Shown in pieces: positions 8,037 to 31,500 of a stretch of DNA of 64,000 nucleotides (the first letter of the stretch is position 1; each line of letters begins with the position of its first letter). The stretch spans positions 18,218 to 82,217 of the forward strand of contig JBDTVZ010000001.1 of assembly GCA_040006935.1 (NCBI GenBank), given 5' to 3'. A program made the position numbers and the translations under genes. Below the pieces are notes generated by a model that saw only the letters and a list, made by a program, of their open reading frames with translations, was not told the DNA's origin and did not search any database. The DNA is from Candidatus Dojkabacteria bacterium (GTDB taxonomy: Bacteria; Patescibacteriota; Dojkabacteria; J137).

Positions 8037-8053
8037 CGTGTTAAAATTAAAAC

Positions 8054-9262
8054 ATGAAAAGAGCTTATCTAATCTTACTAATTATACTTTCCTTGCTTAT
8101 TCCTGCAGAAGGAGTACTTGCTTATAACTTCTACAAAAACCCAGTAAAAGAGACTAGAGTAGAGCAGAATGTACATAAAACGTATATTTCTACAAAAAGA
8201 GATATTGATCTAGAATTTGCAAAATTGGATAAAGTTACTAAGCAACCAAAGAATTTAAATGATGTTTATGTAACTGGCTGGATTCCTGACTGGGACATTC
8301 CTAATGGTTTAACTACTTTAGAAGATCAAAAAGAAGTTTTTGATGGCATAAGTCCTGTTTGGTTTTATGTAAATGAGGATGGAACTTTAGAGGATACGAC
8401 TTATTCAAATGGACCTACGCTTAAATCTTTTGCGAGTGATAATAATCTGGAACTTGTACCTTCAATAGCATTATTTGATGCAGATACAATTAGCAAAGTA
8501 TTAAATTCAGAGGAAAATTTGAATAAGCATATCGACGCAATTGTAAATATGACTGTTGATAATAATTACAAAGGAATTGATTTAGATTATGAATCAGTTT
8601 TCCTTGCAGATAAGACTTTGTTTTTTAAATTTCTTCAAACAGTATCGACAAAGTTAAAGGAAAAAGGGAAACTTTTAAGCTTTACAGTTTTGCCAAAGTG
8701 GGGAGACTACATTGATTATCCTACTCTACCGCAAACCAGAAGAGTAGAGGATTACAAAAAAATTGCAGATCTAGTGGATGAGTTTAGAATCATGACATAT
8801 GACTTTAATGGTCGTGGAAGTAATACAGCTGGCCCAGTAGCGCCTTTGAAGTGGATGGAATCTACAATTAAATATGCTATCAGCTTAGGAATTCCAAGAA
8901 ATAAAATTCTACTGGGCATTCCAACCTACTCATACGATTGGGGTGAAAGACCTCTCGAACCGGACGACGTTGATATAATAAATTGGTACGGGAATTTGAT
9001 AACTGACACTCCGTTAGAGGCTGGTGTTGCTTACTTTAATAAGCAAATAAATCAAGTTAGAAATGGCTACACTTTAACTGAAACATTCAATAATGCTTGG
9101 GGAGAAGTTGTGGGAACTTATAATTATAAAGGAGAGAACAGAATAATAGTTTTTCCTAATGAAGAATCTTGGAAATTGAGAAAGCAACTAGCAGCAGATT
9201 ATGGATTAAAAGGAATTGCATACTGGAGAATTGGTGACGAAGATGGTTTAAAACTACAATAA
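8054..9262 (+). CDS. secreted glycoside hydrolase family 18 (chitinase-like)
   Basis: 402 aa; signal peptide; the GH18 catalytic motif GIDLDYE is present (DxxDxDxE). Confidence 0.8.
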   Translation: MKRAYLILLIILSLLIPAEGVLAYNFYKNPVKETRVEQNVHKTYISTKRDIDLEFAKLDKVTKQPKNLNDVYVTGWIPDWDIPNGLTTLEDQKEVFDGISPVWFYVNEDGTLEDTTYSNGPTLKSFASDNNLELVPSIALFDADTISKVLNSEENLNKHIDAIVNMTVDNNYKGIDLDYESVFLADKTLFFKFLQTVSTKLKEKGKLLSFTVLPKWGDYIDYPTLPQTRRVEDYKKIADLVDEFRIMTYDFNGRGSNTAGPVAPLKWMESTIKYAISLGIPRNKILLGIPTYSYDWGERPLEPDDVDIINWYGNLITDTPLEAGVAYFNKQINQVRNGYTLTETFNNAWGEVVGTYNYKGENRIIVFPNEESWKLRKQLAADYGLKGIAYWRIGDEDGLKLQ

Positions 9263-10327
9263 ATGAAAACTTGGCAACTTCTAAAACAAAACCCTGAGTT
9301 ATTCGAAAGATATTTTGTAAAAGAATATATAATAAAAGCCTGCAGAAAATTCTTCGAGAATAAAAATTATCATGAGCTTGAAAGCCCATTGTTAACTCCC
9401 TACTTACCTCAAGAAAGGTACATGGACCCAATGAGAGTCGATTTAGAATTGAAGGGACAGAAATTGAAAAAAGAAGTCTATATCACACCAACAACAGAAA
9501 GATATAATAAAGTTCTATTATCAGCTGGGTTTGGAGAGCATTTTGTAATTACAAAAGTTGCCAGAGATTTAGAGGACATTAGTCCAAATCATGGACCAGA
9601 ATTTACAATGTTGGAATGGTATCACCTAGATGCAAATTATAAAGACATGATGGATGATACTGAAGATTTAATAATAAGCATCTTAGATTATTTAAAAAAA
9701 CATTCAAAATTAGATAAATTCTCAAACGGTTATAAATTAACTTTTCAAGGGCAAGAAATAGATTTTTCAAAAGGTTGGGATAGACTTTCAGTTAGTGACG
9801 CTTTAGAAAAATTTGCAGGATTAAAATTAGAAAGTATTCAAACTTTGGAGCAAATTAAAGAAGCAGCAATTAAAAAAGGACATACTGTGGAAGGTGTGGA
9901 AGATTGGCAAGCTTTGTTTGAGCTTATTTTTATAACTGATATTGAACCTAATTTATCTAAAACAAAACCTACTTTCATTTATAATTATCCAAAAATTTTA
10001 GGACCTTTGACAAAACCAAATGTGGAAAACCCTTTAGTTTGTGAAAAGGTTGAGTTGTATATTGCAGGTAAGGAAATTGCTAATGGATATACAGAATTAA
10101 CCGATGGCAATCTTTTAGAACAAAATTTTAAAGAGGAAGAAGGAGCAAGGAAAAAATTAGGAAAAGACTCAATAACATTTGATAATGATTTAGTAGATGC
10201 TGTGAAATCTGGAATGCCAGAGGTTGGAGGAGTGGGAATGGGATTAGATAGATTGGCAATGATATTTACGGATGCAAAAAATATTGCAGAAGTAAATTTC
10301 TTTCCTGCGACGGAATGGTTTGAATAA
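9263..10327 (+). CDS. epmA: EF-P lysine lysyltransferase (PoxA/GenX)
   Basis: 354 aa class II LysRS-like catalytic core without an anticodon-binding domain; HGPEFTMLEWY, KPTFIYNYP, VELYIAGKEIANGYTELTD and GMGLDRL align with E. coli EpmA motifs. Confidence 0.85.
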   Translation: MKTWQLLKQNPELFERYFVKEYIIKACRKFFENKNYHELESPLLTPYLPQERYMDPMRVDLELKGQKLKKEVYITPTTERYNKVLLSAGFGEHFVITKVARDLEDISPNHGPEFTMLEWYHLDANYKDMMDDTEDLIISILDYLKKHSKLDKFSNGYKLTFQGQEIDFSKGWDRLSVSDALEKFAGLKLESIQTLEQIKEAAIKKGHTVEGVEDWQALFELIFITDIEPNLSKTKPTFIYNYPKILGPLTKPNVENPLVCEKVELYIAGKEIANGYTELTDGNLLEQNFKEEEGARKKLGKDSITFDNDLVDAVKSGMPEVGGVGMGLDRLAMIFTDAKNIAEVNFFPATEWFE

Positions 10328-12612: not shown

Positions 12613-13179
12613 CTAATTCGCTTTTGAGAAGTATTCCCCGTCCTCGGTGTTTACAATAATCTTTTCTCCTTGTTTTATGAATAATGGAACTTTTACAACA
12701 ACACCTGTTTCTAAGGTAGCGTCTTTTTTAGCACCGGTTGCAGTATCGCCTTTTACAGCATCGTAAGTTTCTGTGATTTCTAGAGTGATTTTTGGTGGTA
12801 ATTGAAGGTAAATAACTTCGTCCTCGTAAACTTTTGCAACATATTTAGCATCTCCATGAAGCCAATCAGTTTTCCCTGGAATTAAATCAAGAGAAATACT
12901 TGTTTGTTCGTATGTGTTTGGATCCATAAAAACAGCATTATTTCCATCTACATAAATAAATTGAACATTTTTTGTAGAAACATCAATTTCCTCAACTTTT
13001 ACACCAGAAGTAATGGTTAAGTTAAAAAATTTACCTGTTTTAATACTTTGAAGTCGAACTCTATTAAATCCCGACCCCTTTCCCATTGATGCGAACTCTT
13101 TCTCAACCATAATGTGAGGTTCTCCATTGTGTTTTATAATCATTCCTCGATACAAATCTGATGTCATTGCCATATACAC
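12613..13179 (-). CDS. efp: elongation factor P
   Basis: 188 aa; KH-like N-domain with the conserved lysine loop SMGKGSGFNRVRL (site of EpmA lysylation) and OB domains. Confidence 0.9.
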   Translation of the reverse strand: MYMAMTSDLYRGMIIKHNGEPHIMVEKEFASMGKGSGFNRVRLQSIKTGKFFNLTITSGVKVEEIDVSTKNVQFIYVDGNNAVFMDPNTYEQTSISLDLIPGKTDWLHGDAKYVAKVYEDEVIYLQLPPKITLEITETYDAVKGDTATGAKKDATLETGVVVKVPLFIKQGEKIIVNTEDGEYFSKAN

Positions 13180-13257: not shown

Positions 13258-13749
13258 TTACGCTTCTAGGTTTACACTATCACTTAAATCGTACATAATT
13301 TCCAAAATAATATTAATGGCTGTATTTGTTTTTTCATACATATTAGTTCTACCTAAATAAGGAGTTCTTCTATTCTCATACTCAAGAAAATTATCATTAT
13401 CAGATATGGCTAATGAGATTGACCTAAGATGACTTAGAAAAGTATCAAGAATGTATTTCCTTGTTTCACTTGTAAAAGTTAAATTTCCTATCAATTCTAA
13501 AAAGCCCCTTTCTAAATCACAACTAAACATAGTTATAAACCATGGTGTTATAACTGACTTAGTAGTCTGTGTTGGACTTAAATGATCAGGTGGATTAATT
13601 ATTTTACGGCTAGTAAATTCAGCTAAATTTCTTCTATATGGGTCAGTGATTAGGTTAAGAAGCATTTGAGTTCCAACTTCACTTTTACTAATTTTTGGTA
13701 ATTCTGCATAATTTCCATCACATCCTTGTGTAGGTCCATTTATTTCCAT
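13258..13749 (-). CDS. hypothetical protein, paralog 3 of a tandem triplet
   Basis: 163 aa; shares EVGTQMLLNLITDPYRRNLAEFTSRK and ITPWFITMFSCDLERGFLELI blocks with the two upstream ORFs. Confidence 0.6.
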   Translation of the reverse strand: MEINGPTQGCDGNYAELPKISKSEVGTQMLLNLITDPYRRNLAEFTSRKIINPPDHLSPTQTTKSVITPWFITMFSCDLERGFLELIGNLTFTSETRKYILDTFLSHLRSISLAISDNDNFLEYENRRTPYLGRTNMYEKTNTAINIILEIMYDLSDSVNLEA

Positions 13750-13817
13750 ATATTTTAGAAATAAAAAATATTTACTAAATAATAAAAAATATCCAAAAGA
13801 GAGAAATTTATAGCTGC

Positions 13818-14318
13818 TTAATTTAATATATCTCTACAATTATACAATAGGTTAACTAACTCTTCTAAATATTGCTGAATACAATCATACTTATACTCAA
13901 GTAATAAAAAACTATCTAATTTTACATTTCCACTGTGTTTTATATCTTCTATCTCTTTAACATAAATACTTATGGTATCTACTAGGAATATAAATTGTTC
14001 TAATGTTTGCTTATCAGTAAAGTTTTTGAAAACTAAATATCTTTTTTTAAATCCTTCAATTAAATCTGCAGCAAATTCATTTATAAATTCTGGAGTGATT
14101 ACTTGAGTAATATATTTTAAATAAAAGATCTTCTCTGGTTCGCTTTCTTTAGTTACGATTGAGGTAAGGGGTTTTCTTGTAAATATCTCAGCTCCCAGTT
14201 TTCTCTTTGGATCATTTATCAAATTGAAAAAGAGTTCTATTGAAGAGTAAGCATAGAAACTAACTTCACCATATTTCTTAAAATCATCTGCTCCTTTAGG
14301 GAAGAAGTTATATTCCAT
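13818..14318 (-). CDS. hypothetical protein, paralog 2 of a tandem triplet
   Basis: 166 aa; LFFNLINDPKRKLGAEIFTRK / ITPEFINEFAADLIEGF blocks. Confidence 0.6.
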   Translation of the reverse strand: MEYNFFPKGADDFKKYGEVSFYAYSSIELFFNLINDPKRKLGAEIFTRKPLTSIVTKESEPEKIFYLKYITQVITPEFINEFAADLIEGFKKRYLVFKNFTDKQTLEQFIFLVDTISIYVKEIEDIKHSGNVKLDSFLLLEYKYDCIQQYLEELVNLLYNCRDILN

Positions 14319-14329
14319 GCAATAAATAT

Positions 14330-14800
14330 TTAATCTAACTCGGAACTATATTCTTTAAGTTCAAATAATATGTGTAAAAGAGGATTTATGATTTTATTGT
14401 CAGCTTTTATTATTAAATCCTTATCTTTAGGTAAACTTAAACTTCCTTCTTCAAACCCATCACTTAATAATCTTGCTGATAAAAGAAATTCATTTACTAG
14501 AGATATTTTGTCTTTTTGTTCACCAGGTTGGAGATTTGTTTTTTTTATAAATTCTATAAATCCATTCTCTATATCCTTGCTAAACGCAGCAATAAACCAA
14601 ACTGTAATTTGATTGTGAAATTTGTATGTAGTTGGTCCTTCAGAAAGCGAAACCATTTGACGACTGCTTAATTCTGCTAGACGCCTTCTTTGCTTATCAG
14701 CAATAAGGGCAACTAGCATTCTAGATCCAACATCTGCCTCTGTTAATTCTGGAAACCTTATATCGTCATCATAACCTTGGTAGATTTCTGTTCTGCTCAT
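14330..14800 (-). CDS. hypothetical protein, paralog 1 of a tandem triplet
   Basis: 156 aa; ADVGSRMLVALIADKQRRRLAELSSRQ / ITVWFIAAFSKDIENGFIEFI blocks. Confidence 0.6.
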   Translation of the reverse strand: MSRTEIYQGYDDDIRFPELTEADVGSRMLVALIADKQRRRLAELSSRQMVSLSEGPTTYKFHNQITVWFIAAFSKDIENGFIEFIKKTNLQPGEQKDKISLVNEFLLSARLLSDGFEEGSLSLPKDKDLIIKADNKIINPLLHILFELKEYSSELD

Positions 14801-14802
14801 TC

Positions 14803-16602
14803 TTAATTAGGCTTATAAGCTAAGTTGCCTCCAAGCAATGTTCTAATATCTGTAATTTTATATTTTGCCATCGCCCATCTATCCAGCCCCATTCCAAATG
14901 CATAACCTTGCCATTTACTAGGATCTAATCCACCCATCTTCAAAACATTAGGATGAATAATTCCTGCGCCTCCCATTTCAATCCAACCTCTTCCTTTACA
15001 AATTGCGCAACCTTCACCATGACAGTTAAAGCATCTTAAATCTGGTCCAACTCCTGGTTCAACTTCAGGATAGTATTTACATCTGAATCTTATTTCTACA
15101 TCATCTCCTAAGAAAGTTTTAAACATGTAATTAATAATAGCGAATAATTCAGCCATACTAACCTTCTCTTTCACTGCTGTCATTTGGTATTGATGGAATG
15201 TGAAGTGGTTTGTTCTATTAACTTTCTCATTTCTATAAACTCTTCCTGGCATAACAACTTTGAATGGAGGTTTGAAATCTTCTATAACATGCGCCTCGAT
15301 TGAGGATGTTTGGGTTCTCAATAGAATATTGGGTTCTTCTACAAAAATAGAATCTAATAGATCTCTAGCCGGATGATCCATCGGCAAATTTAGCCTTTGG
15401 AAACTATACTCATCTGTTTCTAACTCCGGTCCATCCATTACGCTAAAACCAATACTTCGAAAAATCGCGTTTAAATCCAGTTCTGTTTGAGTTAAAGGAT
15501 GAAGATGACCTACTTTAGCTTTAGAAAAATTTAATTCTGACTGAGGAATACTTAAGTAACCCTTATTATCAGAATTTTGAATATTTTCTTTTGCCCCATT
15601 AATTAATGCATCGATTGAAGCTTTTAGATTATTAATTGACTGGCCAAAATCTTTTCTTTTATCGTTTGGAACATCTTTAATTGTTTTCATTAATTCAGTT
15701 ACAATACCTTCTTTCCCTAAATACTTTCTCCAAAGATTTGTAAGTTCATCTAATGATGCCGCTTTAGCTACTTCATCATTTACTGTACTTATAATTTCTG
15801 TTTCGTTAACGTATTCAGATTCTACATGTGGCTGTATTTCCTTGACTGTTTTCTCACTCATTTCCTGATTTTTATTAATAGAATAGGACACTTTTAAAGT
15901 ATCTCCTTCTTTTATAATTTCTTCAATAGTAATTCCACCAACTTCAGAAGTTTTTTGCACAATAGTTCCACCATCTGCAAATGACCCAACTCCTTCAAGT
16001 TTCAGCATTCGCAAAGGTTTATTAGAAGGAAGATTTGGTTGTAAATATACTGCTTCTTTAGAAAGCTCATCTAATGTAACAAATCCCCAACTAAATTTTA
16101 AATCTGAGTTTATAAGATCATTTGTAGTGTTTTGAATTTTTTCTTTAAGCTCATTTAAATCACCAACATCTTTTAAAATACTGTATAGGATAAATGGCTT
16201 CTTACCATGATCTGCTTTTAAAGGACTAAGGGAATTAGGAACCAAACCTAATTTCACTAAAGAACAATCAATAATATGTCCTGCAGAATGCATTTTCATG
16301 TTTTGGTACCTTCTTTCCCAATTTATTTCTGCATCAACTTCATCTCCTACTTTTAATTGATTTGTTTTTATACTATGCCAAATTTCTCCATCCTTGATTT
16401 GTACTTGGAAAACTTCAACAAAAGATCCATCGCTAAGCATAAATTTACCTTGATCTGTAGGCTGACCGCCTCCCATAGGGTAAAATACAGTCTTGTCTAA
16501 AATTACTCGCGATTGGTTATCACCTTCTGTAAATACTTCCAAAACTTTAGCTTTGGTAGTTTTTATATATGGTTCTAGAAGGTAGATTGTTTCAGTCTTC
16601 AT
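14803..16602 (-). CDS. pheS: phenylalanine--tRNA ligase alpha subunit with an N-terminal AlaX/tRNA_SAD-like domain
   Basis: 599 aa; the C-terminal 260 aa are a PheS catalytic core (motifs FRSIGF...HPARD, FRCKYYP.EP, GMGLDRWAM); the N-terminal ~240 aa have HSAGH (HxxxH) and a degenerate DGGTIV in place of CGGTHV. Confidence 0.85.
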   Translation of the reverse strand: MKTETIYLLEPYIKTTKAKVLEVFTEGDNQSRVILDKTVFYPMGGGQPTDQGKFMLSDGSFVEVFQVQIKDGEIWHSIKTNQLKVGDEVDAEINWERRYQNMKMHSAGHIIDCSLVKLGLVPNSLSPLKADHGKKPFILYSILKDVGDLNELKEKIQNTTNDLINSDLKFSWGFVTLDELSKEAVYLQPNLPSNKPLRMLKLEGVGSFADGGTIVQKTSEVGGITIEEIIKEGDTLKVSYSINKNQEMSEKTVKEIQPHVESEYVNETEIISTVNDEVAKAASLDELTNLWRKYLGKEGIVTELMKTIKDVPNDKRKDFGQSINNLKASIDALINGAKENIQNSDNKGYLSIPQSELNFSKAKVGHLHPLTQTELDLNAIFRSIGFSVMDGPELETDEYSFQRLNLPMDHPARDLLDSIFVEEPNILLRTQTSSIEAHVIEDFKPPFKVVMPGRVYRNEKVNRTNHFTFHQYQMTAVKEKVSMAELFAIINYMFKTFLGDDVEIRFRCKYYPEVEPGVGPDLRCFNCHGEGCAICKGRGWIEMGGAGIIHPNVLKMGGLDPSKWQGYAFGMGLDRWAMAKYKITDIRTLLGGNLAYKPN

Positions 16603-20905: not shown

Positions 20906-23900
20906 ATGAATAGTGCAATTGCAAAAGCTATCGCAGGACAAGACACTCTTGTTACTCCAGCTAGATTTGATAATAATCAGCAAAAAGACAGAATGAGAAA
21001 TAAAAATGGAGCTGATGGTCGTGGTCTTGTACAAAAGTACGGTATTAATCCTACTGATTTAGCAGCGCTTGAAGCCTATGTTGATGGAAACCTACAACAA
21101 GTACAAATTATAGACCAAGACGCAAATACAATGGAAGCTGATAGATTAAATCAGTCCAGTGGTGGTGAGCAATGGCTTAGAAAACATAAAATTACTAAAT
21201 TTATTGGTAAATTTGGTAAATTTATAGCACCACAAATTGCAGGAATGGGCGTAAGAGCAGCTTTTGGAACAGTAGGTGCAACAGGTGGTCCATTAGTTGC
21301 AGGGGCAATTGGAGGACTTACAGGTGGTTTAAAAGCTGCAGTTGATATTACATTGGCAGGAAGGAATAACACAGACATTGTCGAGTTCTTTGGTAAGAAT
21401 GTAAACGTGGCTGGAGTATTTGAGCAACAGAATAGAGATAAATGGAAAGTAGATAAATTGGCAAGAGGCTGGTTTAATTGGGGAAAAAATTGGGCATTAG
21501 AACCAGTTTATAAATATCAAGAGAGAGAAGATAGGATTTTAAATTTCTTAAGCGATAAAAGGCTAGATTTTTCTAGAGAGGGATATTTCAGAGATCCAAT
21601 GACGGTATTCCCTGTAATGAAGAATCTCCCACTTTCAGATATCCAATTATTTTTGAAAGATTTGTATATACAAGGTACTCTCCTTAGTGCTGTAGGGAGC
21701 AGAAAGGATTTAACACCAGAAGTTAGAAGGATAATCCAAAATTGGATAGACTCATTTTGTGAATTACAACTAATGCTAAATGCTATTTTGTTGAATAGAG
21801 GTTTGCCTTTAACACAAATAGAAGGGATTAGGACTGATGCAACGAAAGAAATAACTTCGTTTAGATCTGCCAAAGGAGAGGCTGCATATGCTCTCAGAAG
21901 AGGCACAACTAATGCAATTCAAAGTGCTGTTTATAATGTAGCATTCCAAACCTTAGTAACAGGTGTTCAAAAATTAGTTACACACTATCAAGGTCTAGTT
22001 ACAATTAATAGAGAGTTAGTTCCAATAAATAACAATGTGGATGCAATGAGGGCAGCTAATCCTCGTTTGGATCAAATAGATCAACAGGTACAGAATTTAC
22101 AGACCCAATTACAACAGACAAACGTAGCTGGTGGGGTTACTAATGTAACCAATCAAGTAGTGCAAAATGTGGCAGGGACTGCAAGAGATAGAGCCCTTTC
22201 ACTCTTTGGTGCAGATTACTTAAATAATGCCGGAATGGGAGAAATGGGAAGGTGGGCAAGAGTTGCAGCAATACAAACTTTTCAAAATCAATATACACCT
22301 CAAGTTGAGAATTTGATTGGAACTTTATCAAGAAACACACACTTAAGCAGAGATGATATCTTAGCCTGGATAATGAATAGAGGGTCTATTGATGGAGCTT
22401 ATCAAGTAGTTGGCGGAGCTTCTATAGTAAATTTAAACGTAACTGATTTACTAACAAGAGCCATAAATGGTCAGTATAATGTTGCATCAATTATTCAAGG
22501 TGCAAATGCAAATGTAGATGCTAGGTGGTTAGATTTAATGAAAAATGGAATGGGACAAATAATTAATCAAGTAACTACTACTAATGTTGCAGGTGCTGGA
22601 TTAACAGATGCTGCACGAGCAAATATTTTTGAGCAAATTGCGAGATTATTAGCTGAGAAAGCTTTAATTGGAGAGAATATTGGGGGAGCTGAATTGCAAA
22701 GAGCAGTAGCTGCTATGGATCCTAACATTTTAAGACAGATATCAGAAGGAAGTGTAAATGTTTTGGATTACTTAATCGATACTGGGTTAATTGTTGCTGG
22801 CGGTGCAATTGGGTTTATAGGTGTTGCAGGTTCTTGGGCAGCAGAAAGTGGGGAATTAGGCACAAGAAGAACTGTTGAAGTTAGAAGAAATATCCCTAAT
22901 CCAAATACTCCTATGCCGCCACCGGTTGGGCCAAATGGTAGACCTTATCCTCAGCCTAACGCGCAACGTGCAGCAGTTTATAATGCAACGCCATATCCAC
23001 AACAAGCTGCGAATCAGCAGCCAGGATTAGCTCCTGTTCCGCAAGGAGGATTAGGTTCAGGTGTTCCAGTTTCAAGCGATGAAACGCTTCATGGTGTCAG
23101 AGCATTGGATGATGCTTCAGCTCAAACAGTCCCATCTGATTTTTTTGCTAACACAAGGCAAAATACCTCCACTCAGCCTATATTAAATAATGCTGTGCCT
23201 CAACAAAATCAACCAGTAGATCAAAATAATCTTGTAGCTAAGATTAATCAAATTATGACTGAGAATTATGACTTGCCTAGAATTATTAATGAGATAATTA
23301 ACAATCCTAGAACAATTACTTTGGACGCTGTTATCCATAACGATAATATATCGAGGCTTTTTGACAAAGCCTTGATCTCGAATTTAGGTATTAAAGAGAA
23401 AGTCTACTATTTAGGAAATGATGGACTAAAAAAAGAAAAAGATATTATGAAATTGATTATTATTAATGACCAATACAATGATATTGTGAAGGATCTAGAC
23501 GCTTGGGGATTAAGTAAAGATCAAATTATCCTTAGACGTATTGTTAATAAACCAGGTGGAGGTGAGGAGGAAGTATTCTACAATATGAAAATAAATAATA
23601 GAAATTATACAATTGAGGAAATAACTGATTCAGGTGTTGAAGTAGGTGGTATTCAATATGGAACACCAAAAGTCACTGACTTAGGCATTGGATTCAATTT
23701 ACTTAGTCAAATAGAAGAAACACAGAAATCTACATCAGTAGGAGAAAATCAAGTAGAAAATAAGGACGAAGATATTATTGCGAGATTTAATATTCCTGAT
23801 TATCCTACTGGAGCTTCTCAGGGTTATCCCGAATCTATAGCAGGAAAAGAAGCAATTATTAATAAAAATTATAAAGAGGAGTATAAATTGCAGCCATATG

Positions 23901-26900
23901 ATGGAGAAGTAGAAAAATATCCACTATTTGATAATGATTACAATGAATTTGACGGAATAATGTTACATAGATTTGAAATTGAAGGTCAAAAATTTGATTT
24001 ATTTATAACTAAAGAAGGTGCAATTTGGTATTTCGATAAAGATAATAATTTTATGAGATTAGAAAATCCTGCAAATGTAGGAGGAACTATTACTTTAGAT
24101 AACGGTGAAGCTTATGAAATAAAATTAGATGCAAATCATAATGTAAGAGTTAAGAAGAACGAAGTTGTTGCAGCACCAGATGTAATTGGTGAGAAGATAA
24201 TTGTAGATGGAGATGAAGTTATCATTAACTCATCAGAAAATTTAAGATTACTTGGCTCTGGAAATAGCTCTATCCCACTTGAATCTTTTGCGATTAAAGA
24301 TGGTAAAGGGAAAATAGAAGAAGACTCAAGGCTATTAGTAATTAATAACCAGAAGTATGTGTTCAGAGATGGGAAAATATATGAAATTAATGGAACAGAG
24401 GTAGTAGAAGATCAAGATGGAACTATCACTATTGAATCATCAAAAGAGCGAGATGTGAAAGTAAAATTATCTAACGGTAAAATAGAAGTATATGAAATTA
24501 TAAAGGGTGATCTTAAATTACCAAAATTGGAAAGAAGAGAATTCCAAGCTAACAGTGTCGAAACGAAGAAACTAAGTTCAGAAGAAAGATTGCAATCACT
24601 AAATGATCAATTAAAAGATAAAAAAATCACTATAGAAAACAAAAATGAGAGTGCAATTACTATTAGTGATTTAGAATTAACACCAGATGAAAAGGCTTTA
24701 CTCCAAGGAAGATTATCTTTGTGGTACGACAGAATTCAAGAAATCAACCCTTTAATCTTAACTGGTCCGTATGATAAAACTTTCAATTTTCAAGAGTATG
24801 GTAATGGTGAAAGTATAGCTGCTGCAATTGTAGAATCTGGTTTTGAAGGAAATAATAATAGTTTAAATCTAGTTGATTTTATAAATAACCCTGACAAATT
24901 GGATATAGCTGATGTAGAAAGAGCTTTGATTAACAAATTTGGATGGAAAGAGGAAAAACAAGCAGAAAATAGAGTGGAAATTATGCTTTATGTTTACCAT
25001 TTAGTTCATGCTGTGGAAGGTGCATTAGGTGGATATTTCGGAGTATATAATCAATTAGAGGCTCTTGATGGTAAAGATATAAAAATTGATATTCAAAATG
25101 ATTCTGGGGCAAATGCTATTCGTTTTGTAGGTAAAGATAATATTAAAGAATTAACACCAGAGAACAAGGCCTTCATTGGCGGTAGAATTACTAAATTATT
25201 TGATATTTCTAGGAAGTTGAATCCTGATATTAGCCCTGAAGACCATCAAACACTTCACTATGACTTTTCAAATGATGGTAATAGGATGCTTAATGCTATT
25301 AGAAAAATTGTTTCTAAAGAGAACGCGGGACCAATATCCTTGTTTAATCTATTAAATGAGATCGAGATTATTGATTTCGGAGAATTATTCCCAACGTTGT
25401 TTATGGAGGGTTGGAAAGACGACAACATGAATGATAATAGAGCAGCAGTTGGTTTAATGCTTTGGCATTTAGCAAATGCAATTGAGGGACAGCTAAGTGA
25501 TAATGAAGTAAAGGGCGAAGACAAAATTTTGGATGTTGACACTGAAATAAAAAAAGACAAGGAATTTGTTGTCAGATTAATCTCTAGCATAAAAGATGTC
25601 ACACCTAAATCTACCTCTGAAGAACGGCTATTCCCGATGGTATTTGAAGCGATTGGCTATAATACTGGAAATAGAGATAACCCAGATTTGCTTGTAACAG
25701 CAATTATTATGGATTCTATTGAGCATTATGCACTTCCAGGATTAGTAAATAGAATAATAGACTTAATGGATATTGATGATGTCGATAGAGAATCCGTGCG
25801 ATTAGGAATTTATACATTTATAGAGGAAAAATTATTAACTAACGATATTGCTGTAGTTCATAAGGACGATGCAAAGACTGCTTTAATTGGACTTGAATCC
25901 AGGAAAACTCTAGAGACACTAGATATTGCTTTAAGTGTCGAAGAAATAAGTAAATTAAATAAAGAAAGTAATGAAGATGAACAAACTAATAATTTAGAAG
26001 TTAACAAGTTCCCGGAGAGTATGGAACTAAACAAGGCATATGAAACTTTAATTCAATGGGATAGAAATCCTTTAAAAGTTGAAATCCCAGTAACTAATGA
26101 GCAAGGGGTAAGTTTTCAGATAAGTTTTAACCATAAAGAATTAGTACCAGCACTTAATGCAGAAGGTCGAATAATGCATAGGGAATTTAACGTTAAGAAC
26201 TCCCAAAATGTTAAGGATTATCCTACTGAGTCTGGGGAATACACGTTGATTTATTCTTTTAGTAAGGTTAAAACATCGGGAGAGGGGATTGAAAGTTTAT
26301 TAATAGAGTATAAAGTTTTAAAGAAAGAAACTCCCGATTCTAAAAATATAGATAAAGTTAAGCTACTAAGAACGATTGAAGAAAAAGAGAAAAACTTAGG
26401 AGAATTACAAGAACAATTACAATCTAATCTAATAAGTAGAGAACTTTATAATGTCAAGAGGAGAGATTTAATGTTTAAAGTAGGAAATGATTGGTTATTA
26501 GTGGGGTTAAAACGATGGCATCTTCATCATCCTGAAAAAGCAGGTACCAAGGACGAATGGGAAATAATTAACCCATACCAAAGGTATCAATTAGAGAGGC
26601 CTATTATTAAAACTAAAGATATTAATGAACCAGACTTTCTTGCCAGCCTAAGTGAGGGTAATGATCAGGTAATCAGAAATCTAGATGCTGAGAAAATAAT
26701 TGGAGAACTTAAGCCAGGAAGACAGTTTGAATCGGATGATAATATCTTTACAGTTATAGAGATTACCCCAAACGGAGTATTTAGAACAAAAAGGCAATCA
26801 AGGAAAGGGGGAATAGAAGTATCTCTAAATTTTGCAAGAGAAAATCTATTGGAATATTTTACAGAAGGAAGGTTGAGAACTATTGAAAATATTAATGTAA

Positions 26901-27463
26901 ACGAAAATAAAAAGAAAGTAGATGAAATTGTTATCTCATTAGAAAAAAATAAAGAACTAATTGAAAGATTAACTATCAATGACAGATTCAGAAGAAAAAC
27001 CACAAATACTACTTACACAATCGAAGATAATGATGGTGATAGTTTGGTAGTAATAGAAAGCACTGCTCGAACAGAAACTCCTATGTTTTTAAGAAAAAGC
27101 ATTTTGCTTGAATGGTTGCTTAACGATGATGTGGAGATGTTAGAGCCAGAAGATAATTCTGAATATGAAAAAACTGTTGAAAACTTAAAGAAAGGGGATG
27201 AATTTACCTACAACGGAAACAAGTACGTGGTTTTACCTAGTATCTCAGGTTATCGTGGGATAGTTGGCGGTAACATAGATAAGCGAAGCGATGTGAAGAG
27301 ATTTCCATCTGGGACCTTTATGAGATTTTTAAAGGAAGGAGTAGTTAAGATTGAAAGTACGAATGAAGAGATAACGCAACAAGTTGCAAAAGGAGTAAAG
27401 GAAGCTCAGAGAAGTCCAACAGCTATTCTAAAGGAAATAGCAGATACTTATGAAGATTTATAA
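20906..27463 (+). CDS. giant protein (2185 aa): Gly/Ala-rich hydrophobic N-terminal region, Pro/Gln-rich linker, long K/E/N-rich C-terminal region
   Basis: Uninterrupted 6.56 kb ORF. Glycine-zipper-like hydrophobic segments (GMGVRAAFGTVGATGGPLVAGAIGGLTGGL; LIVAGGAIGFIGVAGSWAAES). A proline-rich low-complexity segment sits at ~22890-23230 and is locally GC-rich. No recognised catalytic motif. Confidence 0.8.
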   Translation: MNSAIAKAIAGQDTLVTPARFDNNQQKDRMRNKNGADGRGLVQKYGINPTDLAALEAYVDGNLQQVQIIDQDANTMEADRLNQSSGGEQWLRKHKITKFIGKFGKFIAPQIAGMGVRAAFGTVGATGGPLVAGAIGGLTGGLKAAVDITLAGRNNTDIVEFFGKNVNVAGVFEQQNRDKWKVDKLARGWFNWGKNWALEPVYKYQEREDRILNFLSDKRLDFSREGYFRDPMTVFPVMKNLPLSDIQLFLKDLYIQGTLLSAVGSRKDLTPEVRRIIQNWIDSFCELQLMLNAILLNRGLPLTQIEGIRTDATKEITSFRSAKGEAAYALRRGTTNAIQSAVYNVAFQTLVTGVQKLVTHYQGLVTINRELVPINNNVDAMRAANPRLDQIDQQVQNLQTQLQQTNVAGGVTNVTNQVVQNVAGTARDRALSLFGADYLNNAGMGEMGRWARVAAIQTFQNQYTPQVENLIGTLSRNTHLSRDDILAWIMNRGSIDGAYQVVGGASIVNLNVTDLLTRAINGQYNVASIIQGANANVDARWLDLMKNGMGQIINQVTTTNVAGAGLTDAARANIFEQIARLLAEKALIGENIGGAELQRAVAAMDPNILRQISEGSVNVLDYLIDTGLIVAGGAIGFIGVAGSWAAESGELGTRRTVEVRRNIPNPNTPMPPPVGPNGRPYPQPNAQRAAVYNATPYPQQAANQQPGLAPVPQGGLGSGVPVSSDETLHGVRALDDASAQTVPSDFFANTRQNTSTQPILNNAVPQQNQPVDQNNLVAKINQIMTENYDLPRIINEIINNPRTITLDAVIHNDNISRLFDKALISNLGIKEKVYYLGNDGLKKEKDIMKLIIINDQYNDIVKDLDAWGLSKDQIILRRIVNKPGGGEEEVFYNMKINNRNYTIEEITDSGVEVGGIQYGTPKVTDLGIGFNLLSQIEETQKSTSVGENQVENKDEDIIARFNIPDYPTGASQGYPESIAGKEAIINKNYKEEYKLQPYDGEVEKYPLFDNDYNEFDGIMLHRFEIEGQKFDLFITKEGAIWYFDKDNNFMRLENPANVGGTITLDNGEAYEIKLDANHNVRVKKNEVVAAPDVIGEKIIVDGDEVIINSSENLRLLGSGNSSIPLESFAIKDGKGKIEEDSRLLVINNQKYVFRDGKIYEINGTEVVEDQDGTITIESSKERDVKVKLSNGKIEVYEIIKGDLKLPKLERREFQANSVETKKLSSEERLQSLNDQLKDKKITIENKNESAITISDLELTPDEKALLQGRLSLWYDRIQEINPLILTGPYDKTFNFQEYGNGESIAAAIVESGFEGNNNSLNLVDFINNPDKLDIADVERALINKFGWKEEKQAENRVEIMLYVYHLVHAVEGALGGYFGVYNQLEALDGKDIKIDIQNDSGANAIRFVGKDNIKELTPENKAFIGGRITKLFDISRKLNPDISPEDHQTLHYDFSNDGNRMLNAIRKIVSKENAGPISLFNLLNEIEIIDFGELFPTLFMEGWKDDNMNDNRAAVGLMLWHLANAIEGQLSDNEVKGEDKILDVDTEIKKDKEFVVRLISSIKDVTPKSTSEERLFPMVFEAIGYNTGNRDNPDLLVTAIIMDSIEHYALPGLVNRIIDLMDIDDVDRESVRLGIYTFIEEKLLTNDIAVVHKDDAKTALIGLESRKTLETLDIALSVEEISKLNKESNEDEQTNNLEVNKFPESMELNKAYETLIQWDRNPLKVEIPVTNEQGVSFQISFNHKELVPALNAEGRIMHREFNVKNSQNVKDYPTESGEYTLIYSFSKVKTSGEGIESLLIEYKVLKKETPDSKNIDKVKLLRTIEEKEKNLGELQEQLQSNLISRELYNVKRRDLMFKVGNDWLLVGLKRWHLHHPEKAGTKDEWEIINPYQRYQLERPIIKTKDINEPDFLASLSEGNDQVIRNLDAEKIIGELKPGRQFESDDNIFTVIEITPNGVFRTKRQSRKGGIEVSLNFARENLLEYFTEGRLRTIENINVNENKKKVDEIVISLEKNKELIERLTINDRFRRKTTNTTYTIEDNDGDSLVVIESTARTETPMFLRKSILLEWLLNDDVEMLEPEDNSEYEKTVENLKKGDEFTYNGNKYVVLPSISGYRGIVGGNIDKRSDVKRFPSGTFMRFLKEGVVKIESTNEEITQQVAKGVKEAQRSPTAILKEIADTYEDL

Positions 27464-28505: not shown

Positions 28506-31500
28506 ATGCAGTACGATGAGATTAAACAAACACAAAATAATAATCTTACCGAAATTCAAAGAGAACGTGAATTAAAAGCTGCACAACTTCGAGCACAAAA
28601 TGCTTCTACAATTTTAAACAAAAAAATTAATCGGTCTTCATTTTCTAATTCTGCTAAAGAAGTTAAACCATTTGATTATCTTGAACGGCTAGAATGTTCC
28701 ATGACATTAGATAGAGTTGATTCAGAAAGAAATGGTACTAATATCAATACTCAAATTATAAATTGTGATTACTCTACAGAAATAGATTCTAAAGGTAGAG
28801 AAATAATTAAAATGACAGTGCCCCATCGGCTGGATTTTTTAGCACTAAATTTAAACCCAGGATCAGTTTTTATTTTTGATAGGTCTAACTATAGATTGCT
28901 ATCTATAGAACAAAAAGATCAGCAGAAAGTAGTAAATTCTGTTGAAGTTTGGCCTCATGTTGAAATACTATCTATAGATAAAATACTTTTCACATTCTCA
29001 GATTTACTTAATAAAGAGAAAATCGTAGCCTTTGAAAGTTTAGAAAATAATGTAATGCGTCTCAAAAAAGGTCCTTTTGATGGCTTCCCAAATAAAATTT
29101 ATTTCCAAAAATATAACCTTGAGAACCCAATATTTATTGAAGACTATGATGAAATTAAAAAAGCCTACCATGCTCCTGGGCAAGGGTCTTTTATTGATGT
29201 TGATTATAATATGGCTATTAAAGCGTTTAACCAAGCATCGAACATATTAGAAACCGAAGACAGAACTGCTGATTTTCAATACCCAGAAGTATTAAGATTA
29301 TTTTCTAAATTAAAAATAGCATTTGCTAAAGATTTAATTCCTAATGAAAATCCTCATGACACTGTTTTTGAATTGAGATTAAGAAACGAATTAAATATTG
29401 ATGGTGTACATATTTACGCAGGGGCAGTAATGAAAATTGATGTGAATGATCCAGAATTTTTTACAATAAAGTATCCTCCTCAAAATGGTGTCCAGATTGA
29501 GTTTATAGAAATAAATGGCACAAAATTATATGCACCAGGGGAAATTTTGTGTAGAAATACCTCCGAAGATCTCCAAATAACCTCAATAAATGGTGGCCAA
29601 CTCGAGAATATGGGAAGCGAAAGAGTTATTAAAATTATAAAAGCAAATAATGGATTTATTGGCTTGGTAGCAAATGATGAAGTAATTAAATTCACGAAAG
29701 ATCATAAAGTTTTAACTTTACTAAGTAATGTGGACCCATCAGTACAAATACTAATAAGTGATATTATGAAAAATAGATACTTTTTACATGATATTTACTC
29801 TGATAATTACCTAGAAGGGGCAATTGAACTTGTAAGTAATCACACAGGTTCTCTTGCTACAATAATATTTGAAGATGAACAACCTGGGAATATAATTATT
29901 CCAAACTATCCAAACATTCATCCATCGTTACACGGTCTTGCAATAGGCCAATTTGACAGATTAATTTTAGATAAAAAAGGTGAATTTGCAATCTTTGGCG
30001 TTGCTACTGAAAGATACGATATGCATTTTCGTGGAGTATGGTACGAAAGAATAGAACGAATTTTTATAAATTTTCGAACTGGAGAGGTTAGGTTTAGGTG
30101 TGATAGCTATTTTGAAGGTGGCAAAAGATACGGTCAAACTAAGTACAGTGAGAATACTTATATTATTGTCGATAATTTAGGCCTTAAACAAACAGGAGAT
30201 GGTATATTTTCTGAAGTCGAAAACAATGTGCCAAAGGGAGATGATTATAAGGACCACATTTCAAGGACGCTTAAAATTAAAGAAATAAGAATAGGAGATA
30301 TGAGACAGTTAAATGAAGATAGGATTGATATAACTGCATCATTTGACTCAATAGTATTAAATAACCAAGAAAACCCCACATTACATAACTGGATATACGC
30401 ACAGGCTCCATTTGGAAGTATTGTTAACTTTAATAGTAAAAATTCTATAATTGAAAGCATTGAAGTACCCTACGATACCTATATAAAATCTGGTGGGATA
30501 CGCGCATCACTAGGATCTAGCTTTAAAATAAGTGGTATAAGAAAAGTTTTATTTGAGGAAGATTCTCAGAATTTTCCATTAGATGTAAAGGAATTAAAAG
30601 GTGAAATTACTATTACATTAAATAATAAAATTTATAGGGCAAAAGATATTAGTGTTAATAGTTTAGGTTTAAAATTGGACAAATTCCCTTTAATTACTTG
30701 GGAGGTTATTTACAATGGTGCTACAGAATTACCTGATGAGTTATTAGTGGAAAATAATAGTGTAAATATACCAACAAAGAACGAAATTCTTTATCTTGCA
30801 AATCGATTAACTGTGCAGGTTAATAATAGGAAACCTGAAGATGACTTTGATCTAGAACAAAATGTAAATAGTTTAATCGGGCTAACAAGATGGCTATATG
30901 AATCTGCAAATAAATTAGGTGGCCCATTCAATCTAGCGGAATGGGTTACAATCTATAAACCATTACTTTATTATTACTATAACGACCCTGAGGCAGTAAT
31001 ATTGCTAATAATGGGCTTTATACCTAATTCAAACGGTAATATAGATCCAATAGATTACATGTTTCTTTATGCAACATACCTTGAGATTTTTAAACAAAGA
31101 TATCCGGAGGTAGAAAGTGAATTAATTTTACTATTGAGTAGTTTAAACCCCGATCTTAAATTTATATATAAGAATGAAATTAAAGATATTATAAGTAATT
31201 TTGAAATACTCGAAGATGAGAATAAGCAACATTTCCTAGACGAGTTAGATAGCATAAATATGGATACGCCTAGTCATATCCCAGTCCCAGTAAGTCACTC
31301 TCAAGTAGAAGGCTTCAAAGCAGACCAATTCTCAATAGAAAAAGGTTTTCTCAAATTTAATGAAGAACCTAAAGCAATCGATCTTTTACAAAGAATAGGT
31401 AACCTTCGAGAACTTTCAACTAGCTCTGAGCTTGACAAGCAAATAGAAATAATTAAAGAAAACGGTTCGAGAATTGATATGAATGTTGTTGGTCAGATTT

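What the first reader, a model, noticed from the sequence alone, without database searches (positions are those of the whole stretch)
14803..16602. pheS carries an N-terminal AlaX/ThrRS-type tRNA_SAD domain with a degenerate metal site
Bacterial PheS is ~340 aa, but this protein is 599 aa. Its first ~240 residues resemble the AlaX editing domain, with HSAGH retained but CGGTHV replaced by DGGTIV. The lost Cys/His ligands suggest a non-catalytic tRNA-binding or remodelled editing role. No pheT (the usual editing subunit) is in the window. If PheT is absent or reduced genome-wide, this fusion could be a novel cis-acting editing or tRNA-recognition solution.
Basis: partly seen in the sequence, partly recalled or inferred. 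Interest (0 to 1): 0.5.

Follow-up and report, generated by a model that had tools for sequence, protein, structure and literature searches.

The report
AlaX-like editing module fused to PheS
This candidate-phylum bacterium's phenylalanine-tRNA synthetase alpha subunit carries an extra, well-conserved proofreading-type domain from a large, apparently undescribed branch of the AlaX family in which the supposedly invariant catalytic cysteine is an aspartate; it looks like an optional add-on rather than a substitute for the normal PheT editing subunit.

Summary
ORF 14803-16602 (-) encodes 599 aa: an AlaX-M-type module (1-242), a ~20-aa flexible linker and a complete PheS (80% identical, gapless, to a 340-aa unfused PheS in a syntenic relative). 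HSAGH is kept, and DGGTI aligns with the CGGTH zinc motif of AlaRS/AlaX.

The interpretation needs revising. The "degenerate" site is not decay. HxxxH plus D-G-G-T-(Q/I) is invariant in a large family of free-standing ~240-aa proteins, found in at least 576 GTDB species genomes (Chlamydiota, Patescibacteria, Chloroflexota and others). The fused copies keep essentially all 70 positions conserved in that family.

The fusion is real but rare and patchy: 30 of the 120 best public matches, and about a dozen clusters at 50% identity. AlaX modules also occur fused to PheT, encoded after pheS-pheT, and as Cys-type AlaX-PheS fusions.

Absence of pheT from the window is uninformative, because pheS and pheT are unlinked throughout this clade. 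In two other fused lineages PheT is adjacent with a B3/B4 domain; its editing residues are intact in the one checked.

I could not locate pheT in this genome. Best reading: a tethered, probably active accessory deacylase. It is a new variant of a known kind.

The parts
14803..16602 (-). Whole gene: AlaX(Asp-type)-linker-PheS fusion, 599 aa. Identical to NCBI MEP7103119.1, 'alanine--tRNA ligase-related protein', Candidatus Dojkabacteria MAG, on a 516,739-bp contig.
16318..16602 (-). Residues 1-95: N-terminal beta-barrel subdomain of the AlaX-M/AlaRS type. It includes the glycine-rich loop GGGQ (residues 44-47, nt 16462-16473) and H76.
   Evidence: PF01411 C-terminal end hit at 24-97; alignments to 2e1b, 9iuw and 2zze; strands in the model; coordinates
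15877..16317 (-). Residues 96-242: editing-core subdomain homologous to the AlaRS/AlaX editing domain.
   Evidence: NF040865 covers 3-235; Foldseek to 2zzf, 3kew and 9iuw; pLDDT 92-98
16276..16290 (-). HSAGH (residues 105-109): the retained HxxxH half of the metal/catalytic site.
15961..15975 (-). DGGTI (residues 210-214): occupies the CxGxH position. Asp replaces the Cys and Ile replaces the last His. Family-wide the motif is D-G-G-T-(Q/I/L/M).
16207..16212 (-). D131-H132 within KADHGKKP: a family-specific conserved motif. In the alignments, AlaRS shows different sequence at this stretch.
15817..15876 (-). Residues 243-262: linker NKNQEMSEKTVKEIQPHVES, predicted disordered or flexible.
   Evidence: pLDDT <50 for 247-261; the unfused PheS P0143 aligns only from query residue 265
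15553..15816 (-). Residues 263-350: PheS N-terminal helical (coiled-coil) domain.
   Evidence: PF02912 at 283-344; helices 267-350 in the model
14806..15552 (-). Residues 351-599: PheS class II catalytic core. It includes a CxxC-x4-CxxC knuckle (residues 524-535, within nt 14995-15033).
   Evidence: PF01409 at 359-595, E 2e-69; 80% gapless identity to unfused PheS; Foldseek to bacterial PheRS alpha chains; coordinates

Best explanation
The gene encodes an ordinary, complete bacterial PheS. A full AlaX-M-type module (beta-barrel plus editing core) is attached to its N-terminus through a ~20-residue flexible linker.

The module belongs to a large, previously uncharacterised 'Asp-type' branch of the AlaX family. 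In this branch the site reads HxxxH plus DxGx(Q/I) instead of HxxxH plus CxGxH. Asp replaces the Cys that the literature calls invariant and crucial for proofreading.

The fused copy keeps every family-conserved pocket residue. It therefore most likely does the same job as its free-standing relatives: hydrolysing a mischarged aminoacyl-tRNA, by analogy a small non-cognate residue such as Ser or Gly on tRNA. Asp would take over the role of Cys, possibly without zinc. PheRS would serve as scaffold and expression partner.

The module is an accessory. It is not needed for Phe-tRNA-Phe synthesis and is not a replacement for the PheT B3/B4 editing site.

Shown: domain identity, motif mapping, family-wide conservation, rarity and patchiness of the fusion, and coexistence with an intact PheT in other fused lineages. 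Inferred: catalytic competence, the substrate, and the role of Asp.
For: 1. Identity of both halves.

2. The D-for-C substitution is a family trait. A motif scan found D at that position in 119 of 120 free-standing homologs (no match in the last), and all 120 have HxxxH. It is also present in all 30 fusions retrieved and in 77 of 80 GTDB loci, drawn from at least 576 species genomes.

3. Purifying selection continues in the fusions. All 70 positions that are >=95% conserved in free-standing proteins are kept in the 20 close fusions. These include GGGQ, D50, H76, W95, R97/R98, H105, H109, D112, H132, K195, R198, D210-G-G-T and E220.

4. The fusion is real. Thirty fusion proteins come from separate public records, and about a dozen 50%-identity clusters match end to end.

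5. The module is dispensable for PheS function. The same TGT - ORF - pheS - efp locus holds a fused pheS in the window and in L093, but an unfused pheS of 80-85% identity in GCA_039922295.1.

6. It does not replace PheT editing.
- A Microgenomates fused pheS is followed by a pheT with B3_4, B5 and CLM domains.
- That PheT keeps the residues equivalent to T. thermophilus beta N250, H261, E334, T354 and A356.
- A Cys-type fusion is also followed by a pheT with tRNA_bind, B3_4 and B5.

7. The link to PheRS recurs, which argues that the tethering matters.
- A PheT-AlaX C-terminal fusion exists (P0344).
- A pheS-pheT-alaX gene string exists in a Levybacteria chromosome.
- AlaX-PheS fusions exist with canonical CGGTH modules.

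8. Literature: Zn2+ is dispensable for AlaRS-Ed/AlaX-M deacylation (PMC12003907). So loss of zinc ligands does not by itself imply loss of activity.
Against: - The same paper states that the Cys of CxGxH is crucial for proofreading. No Asp-type member has been assayed, and none of the six solved homologs detected by sequence is Asp-type (3kew is Cys-type).
- The region after HxxxH (KxDHGKKP) differs from the aligned AlaRS sequences. The pocket is remodelled, so the substrate could be something else.
- Free-standing members often sit next to a beta-eliminating lyase or a YheO-type regulator rather than translation genes.
- PheT, AlaRS and tRNA genes of this genome could not be examined.
- The trees are neighbour-joining without support values.
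Confidence: 0.5

Rival explanations
1. Cis-editing site dedicated to PheRS. In this view the AlaX module proofreads tRNA-Phe while it is bound to the enzyme. It would clear a mischarged species that B3/B4 does not handle, or replace B3/B4 where PheT is reduced.
For: AlaX modules are fused to PheRS in at least three ways (N-terminus of PheS, C-terminus of PheT, Cys-type and Asp-type) or encoded right after pheS-pheT. No other fusion partner appeared among 80 GTDB loci. The flexible linker could let the pocket reach the acceptor end. The pocket is remodelled relative to AlaRS. In the Levybacteria string, PheT has Phe at the position equivalent to E334.
Against: PheT with a B3_4 domain coexists with fused PheS in two lineages, with intact editing residues in the one checked. 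Of the 80 best GTDB family loci, 78 are not PheS fusions and only one of those is near pheS/pheT. The module is absent from an orthologous PheS of 80-85% identity. From my own knowledge, the known PheRS error is Tyr, which is a poor fit for an AlaX-type pocket.
Confidence: 0.2
2. Non-catalytic tRNA-binding appendage, like the AlaX-like domain of apicomplexan TrpRS. It would raise tRNA affinity of a PheRS whose beta subunit lacks the B2 OB-fold domain.
For: There is a precedent: the Plasmodium TrpRS N-terminal AlaX-like domain lacks the motifs and supports tRNA binding and aminoacylation (PMC3680381). The retrieved PheTs (named ones are Patescibacteria/CPR) are mostly 570-690 aa and lack tRNA_bind. 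The Cys called crucial for proofreading is missing (PMC12003907).
Against: Unlike the Plasmodium domain, HxxxH and all 70 family-conserved positions are retained, including pocket residues. The same residues are conserved in free-standing proteins that have no synthetase to assist. Most retrieved PheS homologs and close orthologs work without the module.
Confidence: 0.12
3. The Asp-type family is not a tRNA-editing enzyme but a hydrolase acting on another aminoacyl ester or small molecule tied to amino-acid metabolism. Its fusion to PheS would then be a neutral by-product of gene adjacency.
For: Free-standing members are immediately preceded by a beta-eliminating lyase (threonine-aldolase-like) in 11 loci and followed by a YheO-PAS/HTH regulator in 9 loci. 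The family scores 145 bits against a cutoff of 300 for the AlaXM equivalog. The pocket is remodelled.
Against: The beta-barrel with the GGGQ loop and the conserved basic residues (R97, R98, K195, R198) are retained. Fusions and operon links are exclusively with PheRS, a tRNA enzyme. Cys-type, canonical-looking AlaX modules show the same fusion.
Confidence: 0.1
4. Assembly or annotation artefact, for example a lost stop codon joining two genes.
For: The source is a metagenome-assembled genome. The fusion is absent in the closest PheS relatives.
Against: There is one uninterrupted ORF. Thirty homologous fusions of 38-66% identity to the query come from separate NCBI, JGI, ENA and Logan records. 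The syntenic fused ortholog in L093 confirms the architecture. The linker length is conserved.
Confidence: 0.01

Closest known systems
AlaX-M trans-editing proteins (P. horikoshii PH0108, PDB 2E1B; P. furiosus, PDB 9IUW) and the AlaRS editing domain (PDB 2ZZE/2ZZF, 2ZTG)
   Same: Same two-subdomain fold: beta-barrel with a GGGQ loop plus editing core. HxxxH is retained. There is profile-level homology over the whole module.
   Different: The Cys of CxGxH is Asp and the final His is Ile or Gln. The stretch after HxxxH reads KxDHGKKP, unlike the aligned AlaRS sequences. The score is far below the AlaXM equivalog cutoff (145 against 300 bits). Here the module is covalently fused to PheS.
AlaX-like domain (AXD) at the N-terminus of apicomplexan TrpRS (PMC3680381)
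   Same: An AlaX-type domain appended through a linker to the N-terminus of a synthetase that is not AlaRS or ThrRS.
   Different: The Plasmodium AXD is AlaX-S-like and has lost all four site residues. It is reported to help tRNA binding rather than editing. Here HxxxH and all family-conserved residues are kept, and the partner is PheS, a class II enzyme that already has an editing subunit.
ThrRS N2 editing domain
   Same: Same superfamily. It is an N-terminal cis-editing domain on a class II synthetase. Zn is not needed for activity (PMC12003907).
   Different: ThrRS N2 keeps CxGxH and lacks the AlaX-M beta-barrel. No ThrRS entry appeared among the sequence or fold matches listed.
PheRS beta-subunit B3/B4 editing domain
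   Same: The established proofreading site of bacterial PheRS. This makes it the functional neighbour of any editing module tethered to PheRS.
   Different: The fold is unrelated. It is present and apparently intact alongside AlaX modules in the lineages where it could be checked.
Other AlaX-PheRS arrangements found here: PheT-AlaX fusion (P0344), Cys-type AlaX-PheS fusions (P0370, P0386), pheS-pheT-alaX string (L018)
   Same: The same kind of module is physically or genetically coupled to PheRS.
   Different: The attachment point or motif state differs: C...H, D...H or D...Q/I.

Membership tests
Bacterial PheS (PheRS alpha subunit) | Class II catalytic core of the PheS type (PF01409) | tested here: met
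   Residues 359-595, E 1.8e-69, 234 bits against a cutoff of 19.8. Foldseek matches bacterial PheRS alpha chains.
Bacterial PheS (PheRS alpha subunit) | N-terminal helical tRNA-contacting domain (PF02912) | tested here: met
   Residues 283-344, E 5.5e-18. Helices 267-350 in the model.
Bacterial PheS (PheRS alpha subunit) | Reaches the NCBIfam equivalog cutoff for pheS (TIGR00468) | tested here: inconclusive
   221 bits against a cutoff of 237.45, covering profile positions 3-316 of 324. However, it is 80% identical without gaps to a 340-aa protein that NCBI names PheS.
Bacterial PheS (PheRS alpha subunit) | A partner PheT encoded in the same genome (alpha2beta2 enzyme) | not testable with these tools
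   pheT is not in the window.
AlaX-M (NCBIfam NF040865, PH0108 type) | Beta-barrel plus editing-core fold | tested here: met
   Profile coverage 1-225 of 234. TMt 0.84 to 9iuw and 0.82 to 3kew; rmsd 2.3 A to 2zzf.
AlaX-M (NCBIfam NF040865, PH0108 type) | HxxxH motif | tested here: met
   HSAGH at residues 105-109.
AlaX-M (NCBIfam NF040865, PH0108 type) | CxGxH motif, described as invariant with a crucial Cys (PMC12003907) | tested here: not met
   DGGTI at residues 210-214 aligns to CGGTH.
AlaX-M (NCBIfam NF040865, PH0108 type) | Reaches the curated equivalog score | tested here: not met
   145.4 bits against a cutoff of 300.
AlaX-M (NCBIfam NF040865, PH0108 type) | Deacylates Ser-/Gly-tRNA-Ala; binds Zn2+ | not testable with these tools
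   This needs biochemistry. Model coordinates were not exposed, so site geometry could not be measured.
Pfam tRNA_SAD (PF07973) | Match to the model | tested here: not met
   No hit even at E<=1. Cys-type fusions P0386 and P0344 do hit it.
Asp-type AlaX-M-like family (defined here) | ~240-aa module with GGGQ, HxxGH, KxDHG and D-G-G-T-(Q/I/L/M), plus about 70 conserved positions | tested here: met
   50-56% identity to the 120 listed free-standing members. All conserved positions are present except F65, C113, I142 and F208, which are conservative or variable within the fusions.
ThrRS N2 editing domain | Best similarity to ThrRS N2, with CxGxH present | tested here: not met
   PDB sequence matches and the 50 listed fold matches are AlaRS, AlaX or PheRS only.
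Degenerate AlaX-like tRNA-binding appendage (Plasmodium TrpRS AXD type) | Loss of both site motifs and of pocket conservation | tested here: not met
   HxxxH and the pocket residues are conserved across fusions.

The most novel reading that the evidence does not exclude
The Asp-type AlaX module is a second, cis-acting proofreading site of PheRS with a new specificity. It would clear a mischarged tRNA-Phe species that B3/B4 cannot handle. It would work without zinc and without the oxidation-sensitive cysteine, making it an intrinsically ROS-proof editing chemistry that breaks the 'invariant CxGxH' rule for this fold.
Probability: 0.15. Interest if true: 0.75.

Novelty: new variant of a known kind. 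Interest (0 to 1): 0.5.

Why it matters
A 2025 study treats HxxxH/CxGxH as invariant in AlaRS, AlaX and ThrRS editing domains across life. It assigns the Cys a crucial role, with zinc acting as its shield against oxidation.

Here a family present in at least 576 species genomes replaces that Cys with Asp and usually drops the last His. Everything else in the pocket stays under strong conservation. If these proteins are active deacylases, they are a natural experiment in Cys-free, possibly zinc-free and oxidation-insensitive proofreading. If they are not, they are a widespread enzyme family of unknown function built on an editing fold.

The repeated coupling of AlaX modules to both PheRS subunits in candidate-phyla bacteria adds a synthetase architecture that I could not find described. 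It also gives a concrete handle, tRNA-Phe against tRNA-Ala substrates, for testing what the family does. The claim that the module compensates for a missing PheT is not supported where it could be tested.

Tried and rejected
1. Locating pheT of this genome or of any member of its PheS clade.
- The exact protein is not in the gene-position index.
- The PheT homolog search returned no Dojkabacteria-named hit and no hit on a 516,739-bp contig.
- Ten contexts from this clade (the window plus nine other distinct loci) show no pheT within about 10 kb.
- A composition screen of weak PheT hits was not discriminating.
- The window's genome was not among the GTDB representatives returned.
- Result: untested, not negative.

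2. Artefactual fusion: rejected.

3. Fusion-specific degeneration of the site: rejected, because it is a family trait.

4. A general PheRS linkage for the whole Asp-type family: rejected. Only 1 of the 78 loci that are not PheS fusions is near pheS/pheT. Recurrent neighbours are a beta-eliminating lyase and a YheO-type regulator.

5. The idea that tRNA-Phe carries an AlaRS-like acceptor stem (G3:U70): no tRNA-Phe is present in the window or in 34 loci, so it is untestable here.

6. Measuring metal-site geometry: model coordinates are not exposed.

7. Literature.
- The Novoa 2015 AlaX paper is not held.
- Searches combining AlaX with PheRS and fusion, or AlaX with CPR taxon names, found no description of this architecture.

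8. A tool quirk: the N-domain-only search returned neither the query's own protein nor any fusion. Fusions surfaced only with the full-length query.
Full report
**1. What is at the coordinates**

The window is about 32% G+C. Its gene content fits a candidate-phyla (Patescibacteria) genome.

ORF 14803..16602 on the minus strand encodes 599 aa from an ATG. Its first residues, MKT..., match the N-terminal consensus of the homologous family.

The identical protein is already public as NCBI MEP7103119.1. It is named 'alanine--tRNA ligase-related protein' from a Candidatus Dojkabacteria MAG, on a 516,739-bp contig.

**2. Domain anatomy**

Pfam places Phe_tRNA-synt_N at 283-344 and the PheS class II core at 359-595. 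It places the C-terminal end of the AlaRS model at 24-97.

NCBIfam AlaXM covers residues 3-235 (E 2e-42) but scores only 145 bits against a cutoff of 300. The pheS model gives 221 bits against 237.

An AlphaFold model has mean pLDDT 88.9. It shows two confident bodies, residues 1-242 and about 263-599, joined by a low-confidence stretch at 247-261.

Foldseek matches the C-terminal body to bacterial PheRS alpha chains. It matches the N-terminal body to the beta-barrel plus editing region of archaeal AlaRS (2zzf, rmsd 2.3 A over 246 columns) and to AlaX-M-type proteins (9iuw TMt 0.84; 3kew TMt 0.82).

A 340-aa unfused PheS (P0143) aligns without gaps, at 80% identity, from its residue 5 to query residue 265. 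The protein is therefore a complete PheS with a 242-residue AlaX-M-type module and a ~20-residue linker added in front.

**3. The 'degenerate' site**

HSAGH (105-109) is the HxxxH motif. DGGTI (210-214) aligns column for column with CGGTH of P. horikoshii and A. fulgidus AlaRS.

It is not decay, however.
- The N-domain's best matches are free-standing ~240-aa proteins of 50-56% identity.
- All 120 of them have HxxxH. A motif scan found D-G-G-T-(Q 83, I 35, M 1) in 119, with no match in the last.
- All 30 fusions retrieved have the same motif.
- A scan of GTDB species representatives found at least 576 genomes with a relative. Record titles of the 80 best include Chlamydiota, several Patescibacteria groups, Chloroflexota, Micrarchaeota and others.
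- 77 of those 80 loci show VADGGT(Q/I/L/R).

Seventy positions are at least 95% conserved in the free-standing proteins. Essentially all are kept in the 20 close fusions. They include GGGQ, D50, H76, W95, R97/R98, H105, H109, D112, H132, K195, R198, D210-G-G-T and E220.

The stretch after HxxxH (KxDHGKKP) is family-specific. The aligned AlaRS sequences differ there.

The closest free-standing bacterial structure, 3kew, is Cys-type. None of the six solved homologs detected by sequence is Asp-type.

**4. Literature frame**

PMC12003907 describes HXXXH/CXGXH as invariant in AlaRS-Ed, AlaX and ThrRS-Ed. It reports the Cys as crucial for proofreading. It also reports Zn2+ as dispensable for deacylation and structure, serving instead to protect the Cys from oxidation.

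Loss of zinc ligands therefore does not imply loss of activity, but loss of the Cys is unprecedented in that framework.

PMC3680381 describes an AlaX-like N-terminal domain on apicomplexan TrpRS. That domain has lost all site residues and aids tRNA binding.

I found no paper describing an AlaX-PheRS fusion or an Asp-type AlaX.

**5. How common is the fusion, and is it real**

The full-length query retrieves 30 proteins with the three-domain architecture among the best 120.
- One group is 52-66% identical to the query. Its two source-named members, the query itself (P0121) and P0133, are Candidatus Dojkabacteria.
- A second group is 38-45% identical and includes Microgenomates GW2011_GWA2_44_7.

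An exhaustive HMMER search of 1.84 billion cluster representatives finds about a dozen 50%-identity clusters matching end to end. By comparison, 5,492 representatives match the query at E<=1e-10, and most of the listed ones match only the PheS half.

Independent records and a conserved linker rule out an artefact.

In a neighbour-joining tree of PheS halves, the second group is monophyletic in both halves. In the first group's clade, 19 fused and 38 unfused clusters are interleaved. These trees have no support values.

The query's nearest PheS relatives are unfused (81-85% identity). Its AlaX half is nearest to other fusions (60-64%).

The locus TGT - divergent ORF - pheS - efp is shared by three genomes:
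- the window (fused);
- L093/P0122 (fused);
- GCA_039922295.1 (unfused).

These are orthologous loci that differ by presence or absence of the module. The most economical account is inheritance of the fusion with a later loss. Either way, PheS works without the module.

**6. PheT**

No pheT is in the window. This is uninformative, because pheS and pheT are not adjacent in any context of this clade examined, fused or unfused.

Where pheT is adjacent to a fused pheS, it looks normal.
- In Microgenomates LCJH01 the operon is thrS-infC-rplT-[alaX-pheS]-pheT. PheT there has B3_4, B5, CLM and a weak FDX-ACB match.
- That PheT keeps the residues equivalent to T. thermophilus beta N250, H261, E334, T354 and A356. 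That these are the editing residues rests on my own knowledge of the PheRS editing literature.
- A Cys-type fusion (P0386) is followed by a pheT with tRNA_bind, B3_4 and B5.

I could not retrieve any PheT from the query's own clade or inspect the rest of this MAG. The state of PheT in this genome remains untested.

**7. A recurrent AlaX-PheRS link**

Besides the two groups of AlaX-PheS fusions, I found three further arrangements.
- P0344 is a full PheT with a C-terminal AlaXM-like module reading HTAGH ... DGGVH.
- A Levybacteria chromosome has pheS, pheT and a free-standing Asp-type alaX back to back.
- AlaX-PheS fusions also exist with canonical modules: P0370 has PCGGTHV and P0386 has LCGGTHA.

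No other fusion partner appeared among the 80 GTDB loci.

The link is not a property of the whole family, though. Of the 80 best loci, 78 are not PheS fusions, and only one of those is near pheS/pheT. Recurrent same-strand neighbours are a beta-eliminating lyase (11 loci) and a YheO-PAS/HTH regulator (9 loci).

**8. Interpretation**

The best-supported reading is a tethered accessory deacylase. It is a selectively maintained member of an Asp-type AlaX branch, riding on PheRS through a flexible linker. It probably performs the same hydrolytic job as its free-standing relatives, with Asp in place of Cys.

Three rivals remain:
- a cis-editing site dedicated to tRNA-Phe;
- a non-catalytic tRNA-binding appendage;
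- a non-tRNA hydrolase.

The evidence disfavours a replacement for PheT editing and an obligate role in tRNA-Phe recognition. Catalytic competence and substrate are inferred, not shown.

**9. Verdict**

The sequence is already deposited, and AlaX-like appendages on synthetases have a precedent. However, the Asp-type family and its coupling to PheRS appear undescribed in the literature I could search.

Novelty: new variant of a known kind. Interest: 0.5.

Noticed in passing
window 13258-14800 (minus strand): ORFs 14330-14800, 13818-14318, 13258-13749: Three tandem paralogous small ORFs (156, 166 and 163 aa; 19-32% identical to each other) lie between pheS and efp. They have no Pfam hit. They are absent from the syntenic loci L002 and L093, so they look like a lineage-specific insertion or expansion.
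   Followed up: partly
L008 6276-8570 (GCA_034680565.1, JAXOUH010003742.1): A complete class II LysRS (553 bits to the lysS model) carries a C-terminal B3/4 domain at residues 604-732. This is another unusual synthetase/editing-domain fusion, 1.4 kb upstream of a fused pheS. The position equivalent to PheT beta-H261 is Ala; N250 is kept.
   Followed up: partly
L010 2458-5187 (P0344, 909 aa): A full PheT has a C-terminal AlaXM-like module reading HTAGH ... DGGVH (Asp replaces Cys, the last His is kept). It lies downstream of rplT and an unfused pheS.
   Followed up: yes
L018 7016-10723 (Ca. Levybacteria chromosome OY970292.1): pheS, pheT and a free-standing Asp-type alaX are packed 2-3 bp apart. 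pheT is split into two ORFs (8047-9318 and 9333-9998), which may be a sequencing error. It has Phe at the position equivalent to editing residue E334.
   Followed up: partly
L070-L091 and others (e.g. L074 7383-8489; L020 10668-11360): Free-standing Asp-type AlaX genes are immediately preceded by a beta-eliminating lyase (threonine-aldolase-like) in 11 loci. They are immediately followed by a YheO-PAS/HTH regulator in 9 loci. This hints at a link to amino-acid metabolism.
   Followed up: partly
P0370 (627 aa), P0386 (566 aa; L094 292-1992): AlaX-PheS fusions also exist with canonical HxxxH/CxGxH modules. P0386 is followed by a pheT with tRNA_bind, B3_4 and B5.
   Followed up: partly
window 14995-15033 (residues 524-535 of the fusion): A CxxC-x4-CxxC knuckle sits inside the PheS catalytic core. 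It is conserved in the consensus of these PheS sequences and may be a structural metal site.
   Followed up: no
window 20906-27463 and 28506-33941 (plus strand); 33938-35911 (minus strand): Two giant ORFs (2185 and 1811 aa) and the 339-aa ORF between them have no Pfam hit. They lie next to a TraG/VirB4-like P-loop ATPase. A TraC-like/TraG pair also lies near TGT-pheS in L093, which suggests a type IV secretion-like region.
   Followed up: no
window 9263-10327 (plus strand) and 12613-13179 (minus strand): A 354-aa stand-alone class II core (tRNA-synt_2, EpmA/PoxA-like by size and by its position near efp) lies about 2 kb from efp. The same pairing is seen in L002 and L093.
   Followed up: no
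P0241-P0360 (PheT homologs; named ones are Patescibacteria/CPR): Nearly all retrieved PheTs are 570-690 aa and lack the B2/tRNA_bind OB-fold. Alignment to T. thermophilus PheT jumps from residue ~33 to ~153.
   Followed up: partly
The word-indexed protein search with the N-domain alone returned neither the query's own protein nor any fusion among its listed hits. Fusions appeared only with the full-length query. Domain-only queries in that tool can therefore miss multidomain targets.
   Followed up: no
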